DNA of 64,000 nt from Octopus sinensis (Eukaryota): contig NC_043006.1 of assembly GCF_006345805.1 (NCBI RefSeq), forward strand, positions 25,916,001-25,980,000, read 5' to 3'. The notes under the pieces were generated by a model. It was not told the DNA's origin. It did no database searches and worked only from the letters and a program-made list of their open reading frames with translations. The position numbers and the translations under genes were made by a program. Positions 2,839-59,945 of this stretch are shown here, in pieces; the first letter of the stretch is position 1; every line of letters starts with the position of its first letter.

Positions 2839-2886
<48 letters not shown>

Positions 2887-3072
2887 AAGTAAATAAATGG
2901 CACAACGAAGCACCGATATTTACTGGAAAATAGCGAACGTAATAAATACGATGCTAATGTATAGCTTCACTGTGTATGTACTAGTAAAGATGCGTGTGTG
3001 CAACAAACATGAAAAAAAATTGTCTTACCTCTAGGAAGAACATCTGAAAAATGAAAAACCTAGAAACGGATA

Positions 3073-3144
3073 ATGCAGTACTGGTTTCAGACTCTTCAAA
3101 ATACGTTTGCCAACGTATATTTGATTTGTCTTCATCAGCTGCAT
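3073..3144 (-). ncRNA. Type I hammerhead ribozyme motif (copy 1)
   Basis: Minus strand: AUGCAG-CUGAUGA-AGAC[extended stem II closed by GGCA tetraloop]GUCU-GAAAC-CA-GUA-CUGCAU; full conserved core, 6-bp stem I. Confidence 0.85.
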
Positions 3145-3266
3145 ATACCTCGACAACATTTCAAATGTTGCCACATCTATGCCAGTACACTCGTCTGAAC
3201 GCCAAAACGTTAACAGAACGAGAACAGTGAAGAAGTTTCAATGAATATAGTAATGCAATACAAGAG

Positions 3267-3299
<33 letters not shown>

Positions 3300-3500
3300 T
3301 ATATATACATATAAAAGTAAATAAATGGCACAACGAAGCACCGATATTTACTGGAAAATAGCGAACGTAATAAATACGATGCTAATGTATAGCTTCACTG
3401 TGTATGTACTAGTAAAGATGCGTGTGTGCAACAAACATGAAAAAAAATTGTCTTACCTCTAGGAAGAACATCTGAAAAATGAAAAACCTAGAAACGGATA

Positions 3501-3572
3501 ATGCAGTACTGGTTTCAGACTCTTCAAAATACGTTTGCCAACGTATATTTGATTTGTCTTCATCAGCTGCAT
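3501..3572 (-). ncRNA. Type I hammerhead ribozyme motif (copy 2)
   Basis: Identical to 3073-3144, offset 428 bp. Confidence 0.85.
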
Positions 3573-3693
3573 ATACCTCGACAACATTTCAAATGTTGCC
3601 ACATCTATGCCAGTACACTCGTCTGAACGCCAAAACGTTAACAGAACGAGAACAGTGAAGAAGTTTCAATGAATATAGTAATGCAATACAAGA

Positions 3694-3732
<39 letters not shown>

Positions 3733-6870: not shown

Positions 6871-7859
6871 ATGGGCCCAAGACCTCGCATGACCTAGGAG
6901 AGACGGTACGAGGCTCTCTCGTGGCGTGGGAAGCTGTCGGAGGCTGCAATAGCCAGAAAACTTGGTGTAGCCAGGCGCACAATTCAGTGCTTATTTAAGA
7001 AATACGAGGAAACCGGATCAGCAGCTGACAAAAAGGGTAGGGGACGGAAGAGGCTGACGACCCAGCGGGAGGACCGGATGCTGATCCGAAAGTCACTGAA
7101 CAACCGAAGAGCAACGAGCCAGCAACTGGCGGAAGAGATGCAAAAGGTGACAGGGAAGCAGTTGTCTACAACCACCGTCAAGACCAGATTACTGGAAGCT
7201 GGTCTAAAATCCTGTAGGGCCGCCCGTAAGCCGCTGCTCTGGGCCCGTGCCCACAAGACATGGACCGTGCAGCAGTGGCGGACAGTGATGTTCACTGACG
7301 AGTCGCGATTCAGTCTCGTCAGTGTCAAGCCTGTCCATGTGCGACGCCGCAGAGGTGAGCACTTCAACAAAGACTGCATTGCTCCCACCATGAAGCATGG
7401 TGGGGGTGGTCTGATGGTGTGGGGGGCGTTCAGCTACAGTGGTGTTGGGCGGCTCTATGCGGTCGAAGGCAACATCAACGCAGCAAAGTACGTTGAGATA
7501 GTACGGAATGCTGCCCTACCCTCTGTGGGATACCTCTTTGGTGGCGAGGAGTACGTGCTTCAGCAGGACAACGCGCCTCCCCACACAGCCAAGCTCACAA
7601 CCGGTTTCTTCAAGGACCATGGGGTGACAGTCATTGACTGGCCTGGCCAGTCACCTGACCTGAACCCTATTGAGAACCTCTGGAGTGATTGGGTAGGGAT
7701 TTGAATGTGCAGCAATACAGGAACCGACACGAGCCGTTTGGGGCACTTCTTGCTGCATGGAGGGCCATCCCTGCACAGTACCTGCAGGCACTCATAGACA
7801 GCATGCCGGCCCGCGTAGCAGCTGTCATTGCTGCCAAAGGAAGAGCAACAAGATATTGA
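6871..7859 (+). pseudogene. Tc1 transposase, inactivated
   Basis: ATG 6871 in frame with ORF 7078-7704; HTH (IARKLGVARRTIQ); FTDESRF, QQDNAPPH and DLNPIENLW with 34 residues between the second D and E; premature TAG at codon 9; frameshifted C-terminus LIDSMPARVAAVIAAKGRATRY*. Confidence 0.9.
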
Positions 7860-11910: not shown

Positions 11911-11952
<42 letters not shown>

Positions 11953-12054
11953 TAAATTAGAGACAAAACCACTAGTATGCAAATCAAACAAAGAAAGACT
12001 TAAGCCAATACATAAAATAATTTATATAAATTTAGAAATTTAACAATTATAAAT

Positions 12055-12115
12055 AACCACTACGATCGTTTCATGTCTTATTTCAGCACATCTTTGAGAC
12101 ATTCTTCAGGTGGTT
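12055..12115 (-). ncRNA. Type I hammerhead ribozyme motif (left arm)
   Basis: Exact reverse complement of 12182-12242. Confidence 0.85.
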
Positions 12116-12181
12116 TCAAAACCTTCTTGGCGAGTTTTAAACTATGAGTTCATAGTTTAAAACTCGCCAAGAAGGTTTTGA

Positions 12182-12242
12182 AACCACCTGAAGAATGTCT
12201 CAAAGATGTGCTGAAATAAGACATGAAACGATCGTAGTGGTT
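12182..12242 (+). ncRNA. Type I hammerhead ribozyme motif (right arm)
   Basis: AACCAC-CUGAAGA-AUGUCU[18-nt loop]AGACAU-GAAAC-GAUC-GUA-GUGGUU; 6-bp stems I and II, palindromic stem III loop. Confidence 0.87.
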
Positions 12243-12426
12243 ATTTATAATTGTTAAATTTCTAAATTTATATAAATTATTTTATGTATTGGCTTAAGTC
12301 TTTCTTTGTTTGATTTGCATAATAGTGGTTTTGTCTCTAATTTAATATAATATAATATTTTACTATAAAATTAGATTCAATCCTAAATCTGATTTTTCCC
12401 TGTAAATTTGGATTTATTCCCTAATA

Positions 12427-12469
<43 letters not shown>

Positions 12470-16730: not shown

Positions 16731-18645
16731 CCTTGACCCCTACTGGGAGCAACATACAATTGACCATATGCAAACACATTAGTAGTATTGTAAAGAAGAT
16801 AACATATTAAAATTAAGCAGAGGAAAATGAATATTTTTTCATAAGTTTTCTTAAATGAATGTACAAAACAGAAATTAATGCTTTTCTTTCCATTTTGTAA
16901 TATTTTAAAGGTGGTAATTTAATGTCTTTAATGACTGTCTTGAGAAATATGTGTGTGTCTGTATTCTTACAGGCATTCATACATACATACACACATATAC
17001 ATATATACACATGCATACATACATAGGAAGAGAACAAGAGAAGTAAGAGAGCAAGTAAAAATAACAATAGAATCAAGTGAAATTACTTGATTTTCATTCA
17101 TGACAAGGTATTCGATAATAGAATGATTTATAAAATGTCTGTAAAAAAATAAACATTCAACAATTGTATATACTCATAACAAAAGAATGACAAATATTTA
17201 TACTGTTAAACAATGCTTAGCTTATATATATTTTTTTTATTTTTAGAATTGTATTGTTTATTCATTCAAATAGAAAGGTGTGGCTCTGTAAACCTTTAGC
17301 ATTTAAATGAATCATATCTGGCCCAAATATTCCACCTATTTCATGTTCAAACTGGTCAGATCTGACCTCTTATACTTAGACTACAAAATAATTAATCACA
17401 TCATTGAAACCATGAGATAATGCATGATTAATTCTAAACAATCATCATCATCATCATCGTTTAATGTCCGTTCTCCATGCTAGCATGGGTTGGACGGTTC
17501 GACCGGGGATCTGGGAAGCCAGAAGGCTGCACCAGGCTCAAGTCTGATCTGGCAGTGTTTCTACAGCTGGATGCCCTTCCTAACACCAACCACTCCATGA
17601 GTGTAGTGGGTGCTTTTTATGTGCCAGGCGAGGATGGCAGCGGCCACGATTGGATTGGTGCTTTTTACGTGCCACCGGCACGGAAGCCAGTCAAGGCGGC
17701 GCTGGCATCAGCCATGTTCGGATGGTGCTTATTACGTGCCACCGGCACGGAAGCAATGTTAATGAATAAGCATTACATTTAACAGAGTAATCTAATTGCT
17801 AAGGGGTTAATGTATGCTGAGTTGAAATACTTCCTAAATAATCATGGGATTTCTAAAAGCCTCACAACCCTGTATAATCCCTTAGAAAACTTGCAGTACA
17901 AAAAGTATGATGGGCATGTTTAGAACCATATAAAGTTAACCCTTGAAAATAACAAAAAAATGTGGTTCCAGGGTCGGTCTCGCTGTGTGACAAGTGTCTT
18001 CTACTATAGCCTCAGGCCAACCAAAGCCTTGTGAGTGGATTTGGTAGACGGAAACTGAAAGAAGCCTGTCATATACATATGTATGTGTGTTTGTTCCCCA
18101 CCACCACTTGCCAACTGGTGTTAGTGTGTTTACATCCCTGTAATTTAACAGTTCGGCAAAAGAGATCGATAGAATAAGTACCAAGCTTTAAAAACAAAAA
18201 GTACTAGGGTCGATTCATTTGACTAAAATTTATTCAAGGCAGTGCCCTAGCATGATCATAAGTAAAAGATAAAAGACTTCACAATGGGTATATCTCTATC
18301 ATTCAACATTGTGGATTCAGTAGTTTGATCAACTGAATTAATATGTATTTATAGAGGTATATGTTGAGGGGTTCTTTTTTGTGTCTTTTGTTTCAGTTTT
18401 AATCAATACTAGTGCCAAAATAGGACATAGCTATTAAGGATCTAAGGAAAATTTCTTCATTCCATTGTATTGTTTTTTTTCTTGTTTTTTTTTTTTACTT
18501 GGCAATTATTAATTCATTAACTTTGTATCACATACAACACTAATTCTTCCTTGTTTTAATTGCAGAATTTTGCAGTCATATTTGAAAAATTTGACAATGA
18601 TATTGTAAGTATGATAATCTACTACAATGTAAATTTGTTTAAATA

Positions 18646-19998
18646 ATGAAACTGCTATTGATGAGATCCACTTGTTGGTTAAGGCTACACATACAAAAGA
18701 CATTTTATGGCACTTACAAACCAACCACACAACCTAAAATGGGAAAGCTCATAACATCTACTGTTAATACACCTGAATTTTACAGCTTGTTTAACCCAAA
18801 TTTGATATCCCTCATTAATTTGTTTAAAAAATATAATTATGAACTGCGTATTGCTGGTGGTGCTGTAAGGGATTTACTGACAGGTAAGAAGCCAGAAGAC
18901 ATCGATTTTGCTACAACTGCAACTCCTGAACAGATGAAAGATTTTTTTACTAAAGAAAACATCCGAATGATTAATTTGAAAGGAGAATCACATGGAACAG
19001 TCACGGCAAGGATCAATGATTGTGAAAACTATGAAATCACAACTTTACGGATTGATGTGAAAACAGATGGTCGTCATGCTAAAGTAGAGTTTACACAAGA
19101 CTGGCATCAAGATGCCAGTAGAAGGGATTTGACTATAAATGCCATGTTTTTAGATTTTAATGGAATTCTCTATGATTATTTTAATGGTCGGAAAGATCTT
19201 GAAGAGAGGAGGGTTTGTTTTGTTGGAGAACCTGCAACCAGAATTCAAGAAGATTATATCAGAATCCTTCGGTACTTCAGATTTTGGGGAAGGATTTCAT
19301 CACAAAACGGGTTGCATAACCCAGAGGATCTTAAAGCCATTGAAGAGAATGCAGTTGGTTTAAGTGATATTGCAGGAGAACGAATTTGGGTTGAAATGAA
19401 AAAAATTATCACTGGTCCCAATTTTACCAGTGTTATTGCTACAATGGCCAAATTAGGGGTTTTGAAATATATTGGATATGCAGAAAATGTGAATATTGAA
19501 GAAGTGGATCAAGTCTGGAAACGAACAAAGGGTTTCTCTATGTTGCCTATGACTTTGATGTCAACATTAATGTATGATAGCCAAGATGTCATGAAGCTAA
19601 ATCAGAAAGTGAAAATGTCAAATGAAGAAATGAATTTACTCAATTTTATAGTAGAAGAACGGTACAAAATATCAAAAGAAAATATTATTAAGTATTATAA
19701 AGATATGGTCTTGAGTGGACGTGATAGCAAATTGAAAGGCCGTATTTTAGAACTTTTTAAATACTTGGGTGAAGAGGACTTGCTTACAGAATTTAATGAA
19801 TGGATTCCTCCAAGATTCCCTGTGTCTGGATACGATTTAATGAAACAAAATATTCCTAAAGGCCCTATATTTAATCAAACTTTAAATTTTCTCAAAGATG
19901 TTTGGAAAGAAAGTGATTATATCCTAACAAAAGAAGAATTGTTGAGGTTGGGTGAGAAATATGTATCAGGCTCTGAAAGTAAAACTAAATTATTGTAG
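18646..19998 (+). CDS. TRNT1: CCA tRNA nucleotidyltransferase 1 (class II CCA-adding enzyme), 450 aa, single coding exon
   Basis: Motifs GGAVRDLL...DIDFAT (catalytic DxD), EITTLR, RRDLTINA, EDYIRILR and ERIWVE; C-terminal FPVSGYDL; AATAAA at 20016-20025. Confidence 0.96.
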   Translation: MKLLLMRSTCWLRLHIQKTFYGTYKPTTQPKMGKLITSTVNTPEFYSLFNPNLISLINLFKKYNYELRIAGGAVRDLLTGKKPEDIDFATTATPEQMKDFFTKENIRMINLKGESHGTVTARINDCENYEITTLRIDVKTDGRHAKVEFTQDWHQDASRRDLTINAMFLDFNGILYDYFNGRKDLEERRVCFVGEPATRIQEDYIRILRYFRFWGRISSQNGLHNPEDLKAIEENAVGLSDIAGERIWVEMKKIITGPNFTSVIATMAKLGVLKYIGYAENVNIEEVDQVWKRTKGFSMLPMTLMSTLMYDSQDVMKLNQKVKMSNEEMNLLNFIVEERYKISKENIIKYYKDMVLSGRDSKLKGRILELFKYLGEEDLLTEFNEWIPPRFPVSGYDLMKQNIPKGPIFNQTLNFLKDVWKESDYILTKEELLRLGEKYVSGSESKTKLL

Positions 19999-57739: not shown

Positions 57740-57935
57740 CGTTCGGTTTGCTTCTTTATCCCAGCTTCTCCCCTGCCAGGTTGGCGCTTGTCATCGGAAG
57801 TCTGGTCGAGGAGGCACAAACGGGTGCAATCCCGAGCAGGTTTATTCACAACAACCTCCACCTTATGCGATACATCGTAGGGAGGGCTGGGACTAAAGAT
57901 TGCTTCGGTAGGGATCTGATCAATTTAGATCAGTC
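57740..57935 (+). mobile_element. L1/Tx1-like RT fragment
   Basis: ARLALVIGSLVEEAQTGAIPSRFIHNNLHLMRYI...INLDQS. Confidence 0.65.
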
Positions 57936-57949
57936 GAATACGTGGATTA

Positions 57950-59945
57950 GATTTCCCCTACGCCTATATTGACGATCTTATCATAGCTAGTTCTTCCGCG
58001 AAAGAACATGCAGTTCATTTGAAGCAACTTTTCGAAAGGCTTTCTCAATACAGAATTCGTATCAACGCTACCAAATGTATTTTCAGTGAGCCTTCTCTCA
58101 CTTTCTTTGGACACACCACTGATAAGGATGGAATTGGGTCCTTGGCAGAAAGGGTTGAGGCTATAGTAAAAATTCCAGTTCCTGTTTCATTAAGACAGCT
58201 CAGGCAATTTCTTAGATTAGCTAATTTCTATCGACGTTTTATACCTCATTGTGCTGAAACTTTATACCCTCTCAACAAATTACTGCAACACTGCAAGAAG
58301 AAAACAGAAAAAATCACTTTAACTCCTGCTGAACTACAAGCTTTCGACGGTGTTAAACAAAAAATATCTCGTGTCTCCATGCTGGCTCACCCCATTCCTG
58401 ATGCCGAAATTTCTCTTGTAGTTGACGCGTCCGAAATTGGCATAGGCGCAGTTATTCAACAACTTCACCATGGCGAATGGCAACCTCTGGCATTTTCTCT
58501 AAGCAGTTAAAACCAGCTGAAACTAAATATAGCGCGTTCATTCGTGAACTGTCAGCTATTTACCTCTCAGTTAAACACTTCCAACACATTTTTGGAAGGG
58601 AGAAACTTCACCATTTTTACGAACCATAAGCCGTTATCTTTCGCTTTATACTGCAAGCCAGAAACATTTTCTTCGAGTGACATTCGATATTTGGATAACA
58701 TTTCACAATTCACGAGTGATATACGATACATTCCAGGCTCTGAGAACAATGTTGCAGATTCTTTATCCTGTTTACTCGTCAACGCGTTATTTTCAACTGC
58801 GGAAATTAACATGGACGAAATGTCTAAAGATCAACCATCCGTTGATTTAAATGATATATCAGAACTAATTCCTTTCGACCTCCAATTTTTCCCAGTTGCA
58901 ACATCAAACAAACAGATCCTTTGCAAGTTTTCTTCTGATAAACCTCGCCCTTTAGTTCCTGAAAAGCATTGCCGTGTCGTTTTTTCGGCACTACTCAATA
59001 TTTAACATTGTATAACAGCAACATTGAAGCTTATTTCAGCTCCTTTCGTTTGGCCGAACATGCGTCGAGACACAGCTAATTGGACTCGTACCTGTGTCGA
59101 GTGTCAAAGATCTAAGGTACATAAACATATCCGTACACCGCTGGGGTCTTTCTCCACCCCAGATGCACGATTCCAGCACATACATGTTGATATAGTAAGA
59201 CCTTGGCCTGCAAGTCAGGGCTACCCGCTTTTATTAACCTATATCGACTGTTTTTCCCGCTAGTCAGAAGTCATTCCAAACACAGACATCGCTTCTCTAA
59301 CTATGACACAAGCTTTAGTCACAGGATGGATTTCTCGTTTTGGAACACATGTAACAATAACAACAGACCGCGGATGTTAATTTGAAGCTAAGCTTTTCCA
59401 GGAGCTTTCCAAGGTTTTAGGAACTAGACACATCCATTCCGCCAGTTACCACCCACCTAAGAACGGTATGATCGAAAGATTTCACTGACAGCTTAAAGCT
59501 GCGTTGTGTGCTTCTTCTGATTCATCTCGATGGATTGAATTTCTTCCTATTGTTCCTTTGGGTCTCCGCTCTTCTATCAAAGAAGATATTGGATATTCTC
59601 CTGCAGAATTACTTTACGGTTCTTCCTTGACGCTGCCTGGTCAGAGGATTGTTCCTGCAATCACGCAAGATAGCTACACTACAAATTTCATTGAATGCTT
59701 GCGTGATTATATGTCAAAGTTACCATATATGAACACCAGAAAACAAGACATTAAAACATATTTACCAAATGCCTATTTTTCCTGAGCTCATGTTTTTGTC
59801 CGCAACGATGCTGTTAAACATCATTTAACAGCACCGTGTGCAGGATCCTACCGTGTGCTTTCTTGCACAGATAAAGTTTTTACCTTAGATCTCAACGGTC
59901 GTAAAGACACTATTTCTGTTGACAGACTAAAAAGAGCTCACATAG
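57950..59945 (+). mobile_element. Gypsy pol remnant (RT, RNase H, integrase)
   Basis: AYIDDLII, QFLRLANFYRRFIP, VDASEIGIGAV, TNHKPL, NNVADSLS, CVECQ, HVDIV, TTDRG, NGMIERFH, GPY and ISVDRLK; many stops. Confidence 0.9.

What the first reader, a model, noticed from the sequence alone, without database searches (positions are those of the whole stretch)
2880..3694. Tandem 428-bp unit with an intact hammerhead ribozyme per copy: candidate retrozyme / circular RNA generator
Seen: two head-to-tail copies, each with a minus-strand type I HHR. It has a complete CUGAUGA/GAAA/GUA core, a 6-bp stem I, a long stem II capped by a GNRA-type GGCA loop, and a minimal stem III (2 bp, 2-nt loop). Established: tandem non-coding repeats of a few hundred bp with one type I HHR per unit are the architecture of animal non-LTR retrozymes and of Penelope terminal repeats, and HHRs with tiny stem III often cleave as dimers. 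Inference: cleavage at 3507/3506 and 3079/3078 would release an exact 428-nt monomer able to circularise. I cannot tell whether this family has been described.
Basis: partly seen in the sequence, partly recalled or inferred. Interest (0 to 1): 0.82.

Follow-up and report, generated by a model that had tools for sequence, protein, structure and literature searches.

The report
Duplicated copy of Penelope-type retrozyme
This is a locally doubled, shortened copy of a non-coding repeat that lies scattered in hundreds of copies through this animal genome and carries a predicted self-cutting RNA motif; its kind (retrozyme) is known, and the shape of its insertions suggests that Penelope-like retrotransposons likely spread it.

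Summary
In detail: 2865-3292 and 3293-3720 are identical over 428 nt, each with a minus-strand type I hammerhead. The repeat belongs to a dispersed non-coding family with several hundred copies. Its native unit is about 430 nt, with a unique linker between units. In the window that linker is replaced by (TA)n, a junction found in 1 of 130 family loci against 69 with the linker. The copies differ at 0 of 372 sites, against 1.5-11% in native tandems. So the dimer is most likely a secondary duplication, or an assembly artefact, of one truncated insert. Both copies carry a change that breaks the family's palindromic stem III, so the proposed 428-nt circle is unlikely. The family looks like an animal non-LTR retrozyme: covarying hammerhead stems, more-than-unit inserts, Penelope-type inverted arms with a one-sided tail, and (TA)n targets. 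Cleavage, circles and the helper element are untested. A pile-up of 5' ends at the cut site did not pass a matched control. The scan has noted similar octopus families on other DNA.

The parts
3314..3694 (-). Upstream copy: 381-nt body of the retrozyme unit, 5'-truncated at the end of the family linker
   Evidence: 91-98% identical to dozens of dispersed copies
2886..3266 (-). Downstream copy: identical 381-nt body
   Evidence: 0 differences in 372 compared sites
3267..3313 (-). 47-nt spacer: the element's TATATGTATA 3' end run into (TA)n, standing where the family has a 47-49-nt unique linker
3501..3572 (-). Type I hammerhead, copy 1: stem I 3572-3567 with 3506-3501, core CUGAUGA 3566-3560, stem II 3559-3517, GAAA 3516-3513, stem III with 2-nt loop, predicted cut after A3507
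3073..3144 (-). Type I hammerhead, copy 2; predicted cut after A3079
3510..3510 (-). Loop-3 base that departs from the family (A here; G in 98 of 110 family segments), breaking the ACCGGT palindrome; same at 3082
   Evidence: table 3 shows the family letter in nearly all laid depth at 3082
3315..3352 (-). Predicted hairpin just before the main 3' end (also 2887-2924); possible recognition signal, covariation not shown
2849..2885 (.). (TA)n target tract at the 3' end of the insert
3695..3728 (.). (TA)n target tract at the 5' end of the insert

Best explanation
The locus is two identical copies of a 5'-truncated member of a dispersed, non-coding, hammerhead-bearing repeat family (native unit about 430 nt); the family is likely a non-LTR retrozyme copied by Penelope-like (PLE) enzymes, and the doubling likely arose afterwards at the DNA or assembly level. 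Proposed cycle. (1, inferred) A more-than-unit copy is transcribed and its hammerheads cut as a dimer through the palindromic stem III, releasing a unit-length RNA that is probably circularised. (2, inferred from insertion anatomy) A PLE GIY-YIG endonuclease nicks a (TA)n tract, and the PLE reverse transcriptase primes where the RNA's own TA-rich patches match the target: at the linker start (TATATGTATA) on one strand and about 65 nt further on (TTTTCAT) on the other. (3, pattern shown, cause inferred) Copying runs on for up to about two units, straight through cut sites, and stops at scattered points; this gives partial tandems and two-armed inverted inserts with a tail on one arm. (4, inferred) The window's insert stopped after 381 nt, lost its stem III palindrome, and was then duplicated between its flanking (TA)n tracts. 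It is probably a poor cutter and not a source of new copies.
For: Family size: 98 exact matches to a 23-mer, 287 full cores with ACCGGT, 481 matches to a C-prefixed 14-mer, controls 0-2. Native linker junction in 69 of 130 loci, TA-only junction in 1. Of 156 arms in 106 loci, 93 end at unit positions 385-394 and 35 at 20-29; 110 of 131 such ends run into TA repeats; 33 of 45 loci with both orientations pair one end type with the other. This matches the PLE anatomy described in 10.1101/2021.04.23.441226 (partial tandems, inverted 5'-truncated copy, tail on one end, (TA)n bias). Hammerhead pairs: 95% of cells paired, 37 double changes against 15 in shuffles, 25-40% paired in slid controls (70 sequences). 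Older subfamilies change stem I to ATCCAG/CTGGAT and stem III to another palindrome, ACCTAGGT. Two segments of one locus agree at subfamily-variable columns in 524 of 548 cases (450 of 474 without the window and L092 duplicates) against 62% for random pairs. RT plus C-terminal GIY-YIG ORFs exist in the genome. Exact microsatellite-bounded duplications: 5 in 205 loci (742 kb), 3 outside family sequence.
Against: No autonomous element sharing sequence with the unit was found (20 GIY-YIG loci; family flanks). The tail is about 65 nt, longer than the 30-40 bp described for PLEs. The first pair of stem II is A-U in 34 and unpaired in 23 of 70 copies, not the usual G-C. Only 1 of 9 Xenopus retrozyme dimers cut in vitro (10.64898/2026.07.22.740005), so a motif does not guarantee activity. 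The excess of 5' ends at the cut site is about two-fold and not significant against a matched position. Agreement within loci also fits a linear RNA from a recent, homogeneous multimer. Double changes are shared by descent within a few subfamilies, so the 37 cells are far fewer events; and part of the loci were chosen by an intact-core pattern, which inflates core conservation.
Confidence: 0.78

Rival explanations
1. One reading: the window dimer is itself a working retrozyme locus that cuts at 3507 and 3079 and releases a 428-nt circle.
For: Both cores are complete. The 428-nt monomer folds with z -7.75 (the TA tract contributes a long hairpin). It meets the working definition of an 'active' retrozyme in 10.64898/2026.07.22.740005. 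9 of 110 family segments share the loop-3 change.
Against: Palindrome broken: 4 of 6 intermolecular pairs, self-duplex +1.4 kcal/mol. The junction is unique among 130 loci, so no daughters were seen. The linker and tail that define the second priming site are missing.
Confidence: 0.1
2. The family is only the terminal repeat (pLTR) of an autonomous PLE, and its copies are 5'-truncated pieces of that element.
For: The insertion anatomy is that of PLEs. Hammerheads with palindromic stem III are typical of pLTRs (PMC4209133). PLE 3' ends here also carry GAAACCGGT (L140, L145).
Against: Upstream of a full unit lies another unit or the target, not an ORF, in the loci examined: 69 native junctions, inserts up to 880 nt, 5 arms spanning two hammerhead sites. 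PLE ORF pieces in 9 flanks are separated from the unit (L183 and L192 inspected in full, the rest judged by coordinates).
Confidence: 0.08
3. The family spreads as linear read-through RNA from a few tandem master loci, and the hammerhead is inherited baggage that no longer cuts.
For: 72 of 156 arms span one cut site and 5 span two. The excess of 5' ends at the cut site is not significant. The first stem II pair is atypical.
Against: Compensatory changes and a replaced but still palindromic stem III across subfamilies 70-98% alike. No native array longer than about two units was seen, so linear copying with 5' loss would shrink the family (only listed places examined).
Confidence: 0.15

Closest known systems
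Metazoan non-LTR retrozymes (coral, mussel, axolotl; Cervera and de la Pena 2020, PMC7229834; seen: passages, mussel results section, discussion)
   Same: Non-coding unit of a few hundred bases, low GC, one type I hammerhead per unit, tandem and dispersed copies, PLEs in the same genome; mussel units are 350-390 bp.
   Different: Unit about 430 nt, long stem II, arrays of at most about two units in the loci seen, (TA)n targets with inverted arms and tail; expression as circles not tested here; the window dimer is not a native tandem.
Animal retrozymes as non-autonomous PLE derivatives (Li, Clavereau, Pollet 2026, bioRxiv 10.64898/2026.07.22.740005; seen: parts 1-3 of 5, abstract to discussion; supplements not seen)
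   Same: Proposes origin from pLTRs and mobilisation by PLE enzymes; also proposes local tandem amplification by unequal crossover.
   Different: Their evidence is co-occurrence and sequence similarity to Xenopus pLTRs in 35 genomes (the four invertebrates are three insects and a coral). Here the link rests on insertion anatomy, and no parent pLTR was found.
EN+ Penelope-like elements (Neptune, Naiad; Craig et al. 2021, 10.1101/2021.04.23.441226, passages and one section; Cervera and de la Pena 2014, PMC4209133, parts 1-2 of 4)
   Same: Partial tandems, inverted 5'-truncated arm, tail on one end, (TA)n bias, hammerhead with a small palindromic stem III predicted to act as a dimer.
   Different: No ORF; tail about 65 nt against 30-40 bp; no spliced copy seen.

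Membership tests
Type I hammerhead ribozyme | CUGANGA, GAAA and NUH core held by stems I, II, III | tested here: met
   0 hits in 20 shuffles
Type I hammerhead ribozyme | Compensatory base changes in the stems | tested here: met
   5 of 24 pairs with double changes, 37 cells against 15 shuffled; stem I G-C to C-G in older subfamilies; counts are not independent events
Type I hammerhead ribozyme | Palindromic stem III/loop 3 that allows dimer cleavage (window copies) | tested here: not met
   ACCAGU, 4 of 6 pairs, +1.4 kcal/mol; the family has ACCGGU, -8.3
Type I hammerhead ribozyme | Self-cleavage | not testable with these tools
   Indirect footprint inconclusive: 5 of 183 copies start at the cut site against 7-9 of about 519 at a control site, Fisher p 0.18-0.29
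Non-LTR retrozyme | Short non-coding unit, one type I hammerhead each, head-to-tail repeats | tested here: met
   69 of 130 loci hold the native unit-to-unit junction; no window ORF of 150 aa or more overlaps the locus
Non-LTR retrozyme | Dispersed retrotransposed copies without LTR, PBS or PPT structure | tested here: met
   Hundreds of dispersed copies with fixed 3' ends and variable 5' ends; PBS and PPT not scanned for specifically
Non-LTR retrozyme | Expression as unit-length linear and circular RNA | not testable with these tools
   Only assembled contigs of runs guessed to be RNA were available
Non-LTR retrozyme | The window dimer is a native multimer of the unit | tested here: not met
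   TA-only junction in 1 of 130 loci; 0 of 372 differences
Penelope-like element, non-autonomous | Partial tandems, inverted 5'-truncated arm, one-sided tail, microsatellite target | tested here: met
   33 of 45 two-orientation loci pair the two end types; 110 of 131 ends in TA repeats
Penelope-like element, non-autonomous | Sequence shared with the end of an autonomous partner | tested here: inconclusive
   No match in 20 of 147 GIY-YIG hits examined
Penelope-like element, autonomous | RT plus GIY-YIG ORF within the element | tested here: not met

The most novel reading that the evidence does not exclude
This family is a fossil record of retrozyme mobilisation. A Penelope-type enzyme primes at two fixed TA-matching sites 65 nt apart on a single unit-length, probably circular, RNA and copies round it for more than one turn, and across subfamilies 70-98% alike the dimer palindrome in stem III was kept while its sequence changed. 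That would turn the proposed retrozyme-PLE partnership into something read directly from insertion sites and testable with a named template and priming sites.
Probability: 0.5. Interest if true: 0.55.

Novelty: new member of a known kind. Interest (0 to 1): 0.32.

Why it matters
The helper of animal retrozymes has been proposed from co-occurrence and terminal-repeat similarity (PMC7229834; 10.64898/2026.07.22.740005). Insertion anatomy like this ties a retrozyme to Penelope-type enzymes and predicts the priming sites, which can be tested. The case is also a caution: a perfect dimer with two hammerheads can be a secondary duplication or an assembly artefact, and tandem-repeat pipelines would count it as an active retrozyme.

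Tried and rejected
1. Pile-up of 5' ends at the cut site as proof of cleavage in vivo. First seen; the junction rate was 0.0075 per nt at unit positions 189-205 against 0.0006 just upstream and 0.0026-0.0035 background (P 0.02-0.06). Five distinct loci start at 187-189 among 183 copies, plus one at 186. A matched control at position 224 gave 7-9 among about 519 (51 of 55 hits examined; Fisher p 0.18-0.29). Not significant, so not used as support. One search had a faulty yardstick and was redone.
2. An intron (GTAAG to TTTTCCAG, unit positions about 239-343): no spliced genomic copy and no joint in the RNA-guess contigs. Dropped.
3. The 3' hairpin as a selected signal: 93% paired but covariation not above shuffles. 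Left as a lead.
4. Reads to verify the duplication: only short contigs, none spanning the stretch. No RNA holder listed on record; four runs guessed to be RNA hold family pieces, which shows neither strand, ends nor circles.
5. Partner search: the RVT_1 search was not PLE-specific and gave no loci; GIY-YIG loci gave no match to the unit.
6. Literature: five searches listed no paper whose title or abstract start describes an octopus retrozyme or retrozyme insertion anatomy; of the listed papers I read four in part. Repbase and Dfam could not be searched, and supplements were not seen, so the family may already be catalogued.
7. No look-alike of this sequence in the scan's earlier findings.

Full report
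Observation. The window holds an exact tandem duplication: 2865-3292 equals 3293-3720 (period 428). Each copy has, on the minus strand, a type I hammerhead with a 6-bp stem I, CUGAUGA, a long interrupted stem II closed by GGCA, GAAA, a 2-bp stem III and GUA, with predicted cuts after 3507 and 3079. The same scan found none in 20 shuffles. Rfam sees only a weak HH9 match. The host is a 2.72-Gb animal genome; that it is an octopus is my inference from recalled repeat types and from earlier scan notes, not a tool result.

The family. The 381-nt body matches dispersed copies at 93-98% (1780 first-look candidates, 40 scored). Exact patterns give 98, 287 and 481 matches, so there are several hundred copies, plus older subfamilies down to about 70% identity. 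In other loci one unit joins the next through a unique 47-49-nt linker, so the native unit is about 430 nt. Below, unit positions refer to the natural monomer in L007 (cut after 188, linker 381-429). Of 130 family loci, 69 have the native junction and only the window has body-(TA)n-body.

The window dimer is secondary. Its copies differ at 0 of 372 compared sites, while native direct tandems differ at 1.5-11%. The only other zero is L092, where a truncated copy is triplicated together with its flank. Exact duplications bounded by microsatellites occur 5 times in 205 loci (742 kb), 3 of them outside family sequence. Slippage or unequal exchange between (TA)n tracts, or an assembly error, explains it; the available runs were short contigs and could not decide. 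Both copies carry A at unit position 185 where 98 of 110 family segments have G. This turns the palindrome ACCGGU (self-duplex -8.3 kcal/mol) into ACCAGU (+1.4). Hammerheads with so short a helix III are described as needing the dimer fold (PMC4209133), so these copies are probably weak cutters (inference).

The ribozyme is under structural constraint in the family. On 70 distinct copies, 95% of cells pair, with 37 double changes against 15 in shuffles and 25-40% pairing in slid controls; the changes are shared within subfamilies, so they are few events. In older subfamilies stem I reads ATCCAG/CTGGAT and stem III is often ACCTAGGT, another palindrome (6 of 11 listed motifs). Against this, the first pair of stem II is unpaired in 23 of 70 copies, and some loci were picked by an intact core.

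Insertion anatomy points to Penelope-like enzymes. Of 156 arms in 106 loci (3 duplicate loci dropped), 93 end at 385-394 and 35 at 20-29 of the next unit; 110 of 131 such ends run into TA repeats; 5' ends are scattered. Of 45 loci with both orientations, 33 pair one end type with the other, so one arm has a tail of about 65 nt. Partial tandems, an inverted truncated arm, a one-sided tail and (TA)n bias are the PLE features described by Craig et al.. [quoted passage not shown]

Template. 72 arms run through one cut site and 5 through two; the longest is 880 nt. The two segments of one locus agree at subfamily-variable columns in 450 of 474 cases, secondary duplicates left out, against 62% for random pairs. 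This fits more-than-unit copying of one monomer, as proposed for circles (PMC4209133; PMC7229834), but a homogeneous linear multimer also fits. I tested whether 5' ends pile up at the cut site: 5 of 183 copies start there, against 7-9 of about 519 at a control position (p 0.18-0.29). This is not support.

Comparison and verdict. The family meets the sequence-level definition of an animal non-LTR retrozyme and works like a non-autonomous PLE; cleavage, circles and the partner are untested. The class and its proposed PLE link are in print (PMC7229834; 10.64898/2026.07.22.740005). My five searches listed no description of this family or of such anatomy for retrozymes, but repeat libraries and supplements were out of reach. 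The scan's earlier notes describe other octopus retrozyme families with the same footprints; I recorded my reading before seeing them and did not check their loci. Verdict: real feature, new member of a known kind; the particular dimer is the least typical part. Interest 0.32.

Noticed in passing
window 11946-12430: Two-armed inverted insert (arms 201 of 203 identical) with a type I hammerhead on each strand (stem I AACCAC/GTGGTT, palindromic stem III ACGATCGT), extra sequence on one arm only and (TA)n on both sides: a second, unrelated PLE-type family. A fragment lies at 2622-2668, a 73% relative in L135.
   Followed up: partly
window 18643-19998 (+): 451-aa open frame with PolyA_pol and PolyA_pol_RNAbd domains, likely a large exon of a CCA-adding-type nucleotidyltransferase gene.
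   Followed up: no
window 6898-7704 (+) and 57929-58510 (+): Tc1/mariner-type transposase frame (DDE_3, HTH_Tnp_Tc3_2) and an RT/RNase H fragment of an LTR-type retrotransposon.
   Followed up: no
L092 (G000:C4:114660000-114669000) and L094: Truncated family copies multiplied together with flanking DNA (L092 three times, period 524-527, identical bodies): another false 'retrozyme array'.
   Followed up: yes
L140, L145, L192: Other elements carry the same stem III motif GAAACCGGT: downstream of GIY-YIG ORFs in L140 and L145, and about 60-80 nt before a (TA)n end in L145 and L192. Possible leads to the helper clade.
   Followed up: no
family loci, unit positions 341-346: 16 of 91 arms start here; probably explained by an 8-nt inverted match within the 3' hairpin and by TA microhomology.
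   Followed up: partly
unplaced contigs such as C1794, C8702, C12462: The best RVT_1 hits sit mostly on small unplaced contigs with many identical scores: a very young element family or foreign DNA in the assembly.
   Followed up: no
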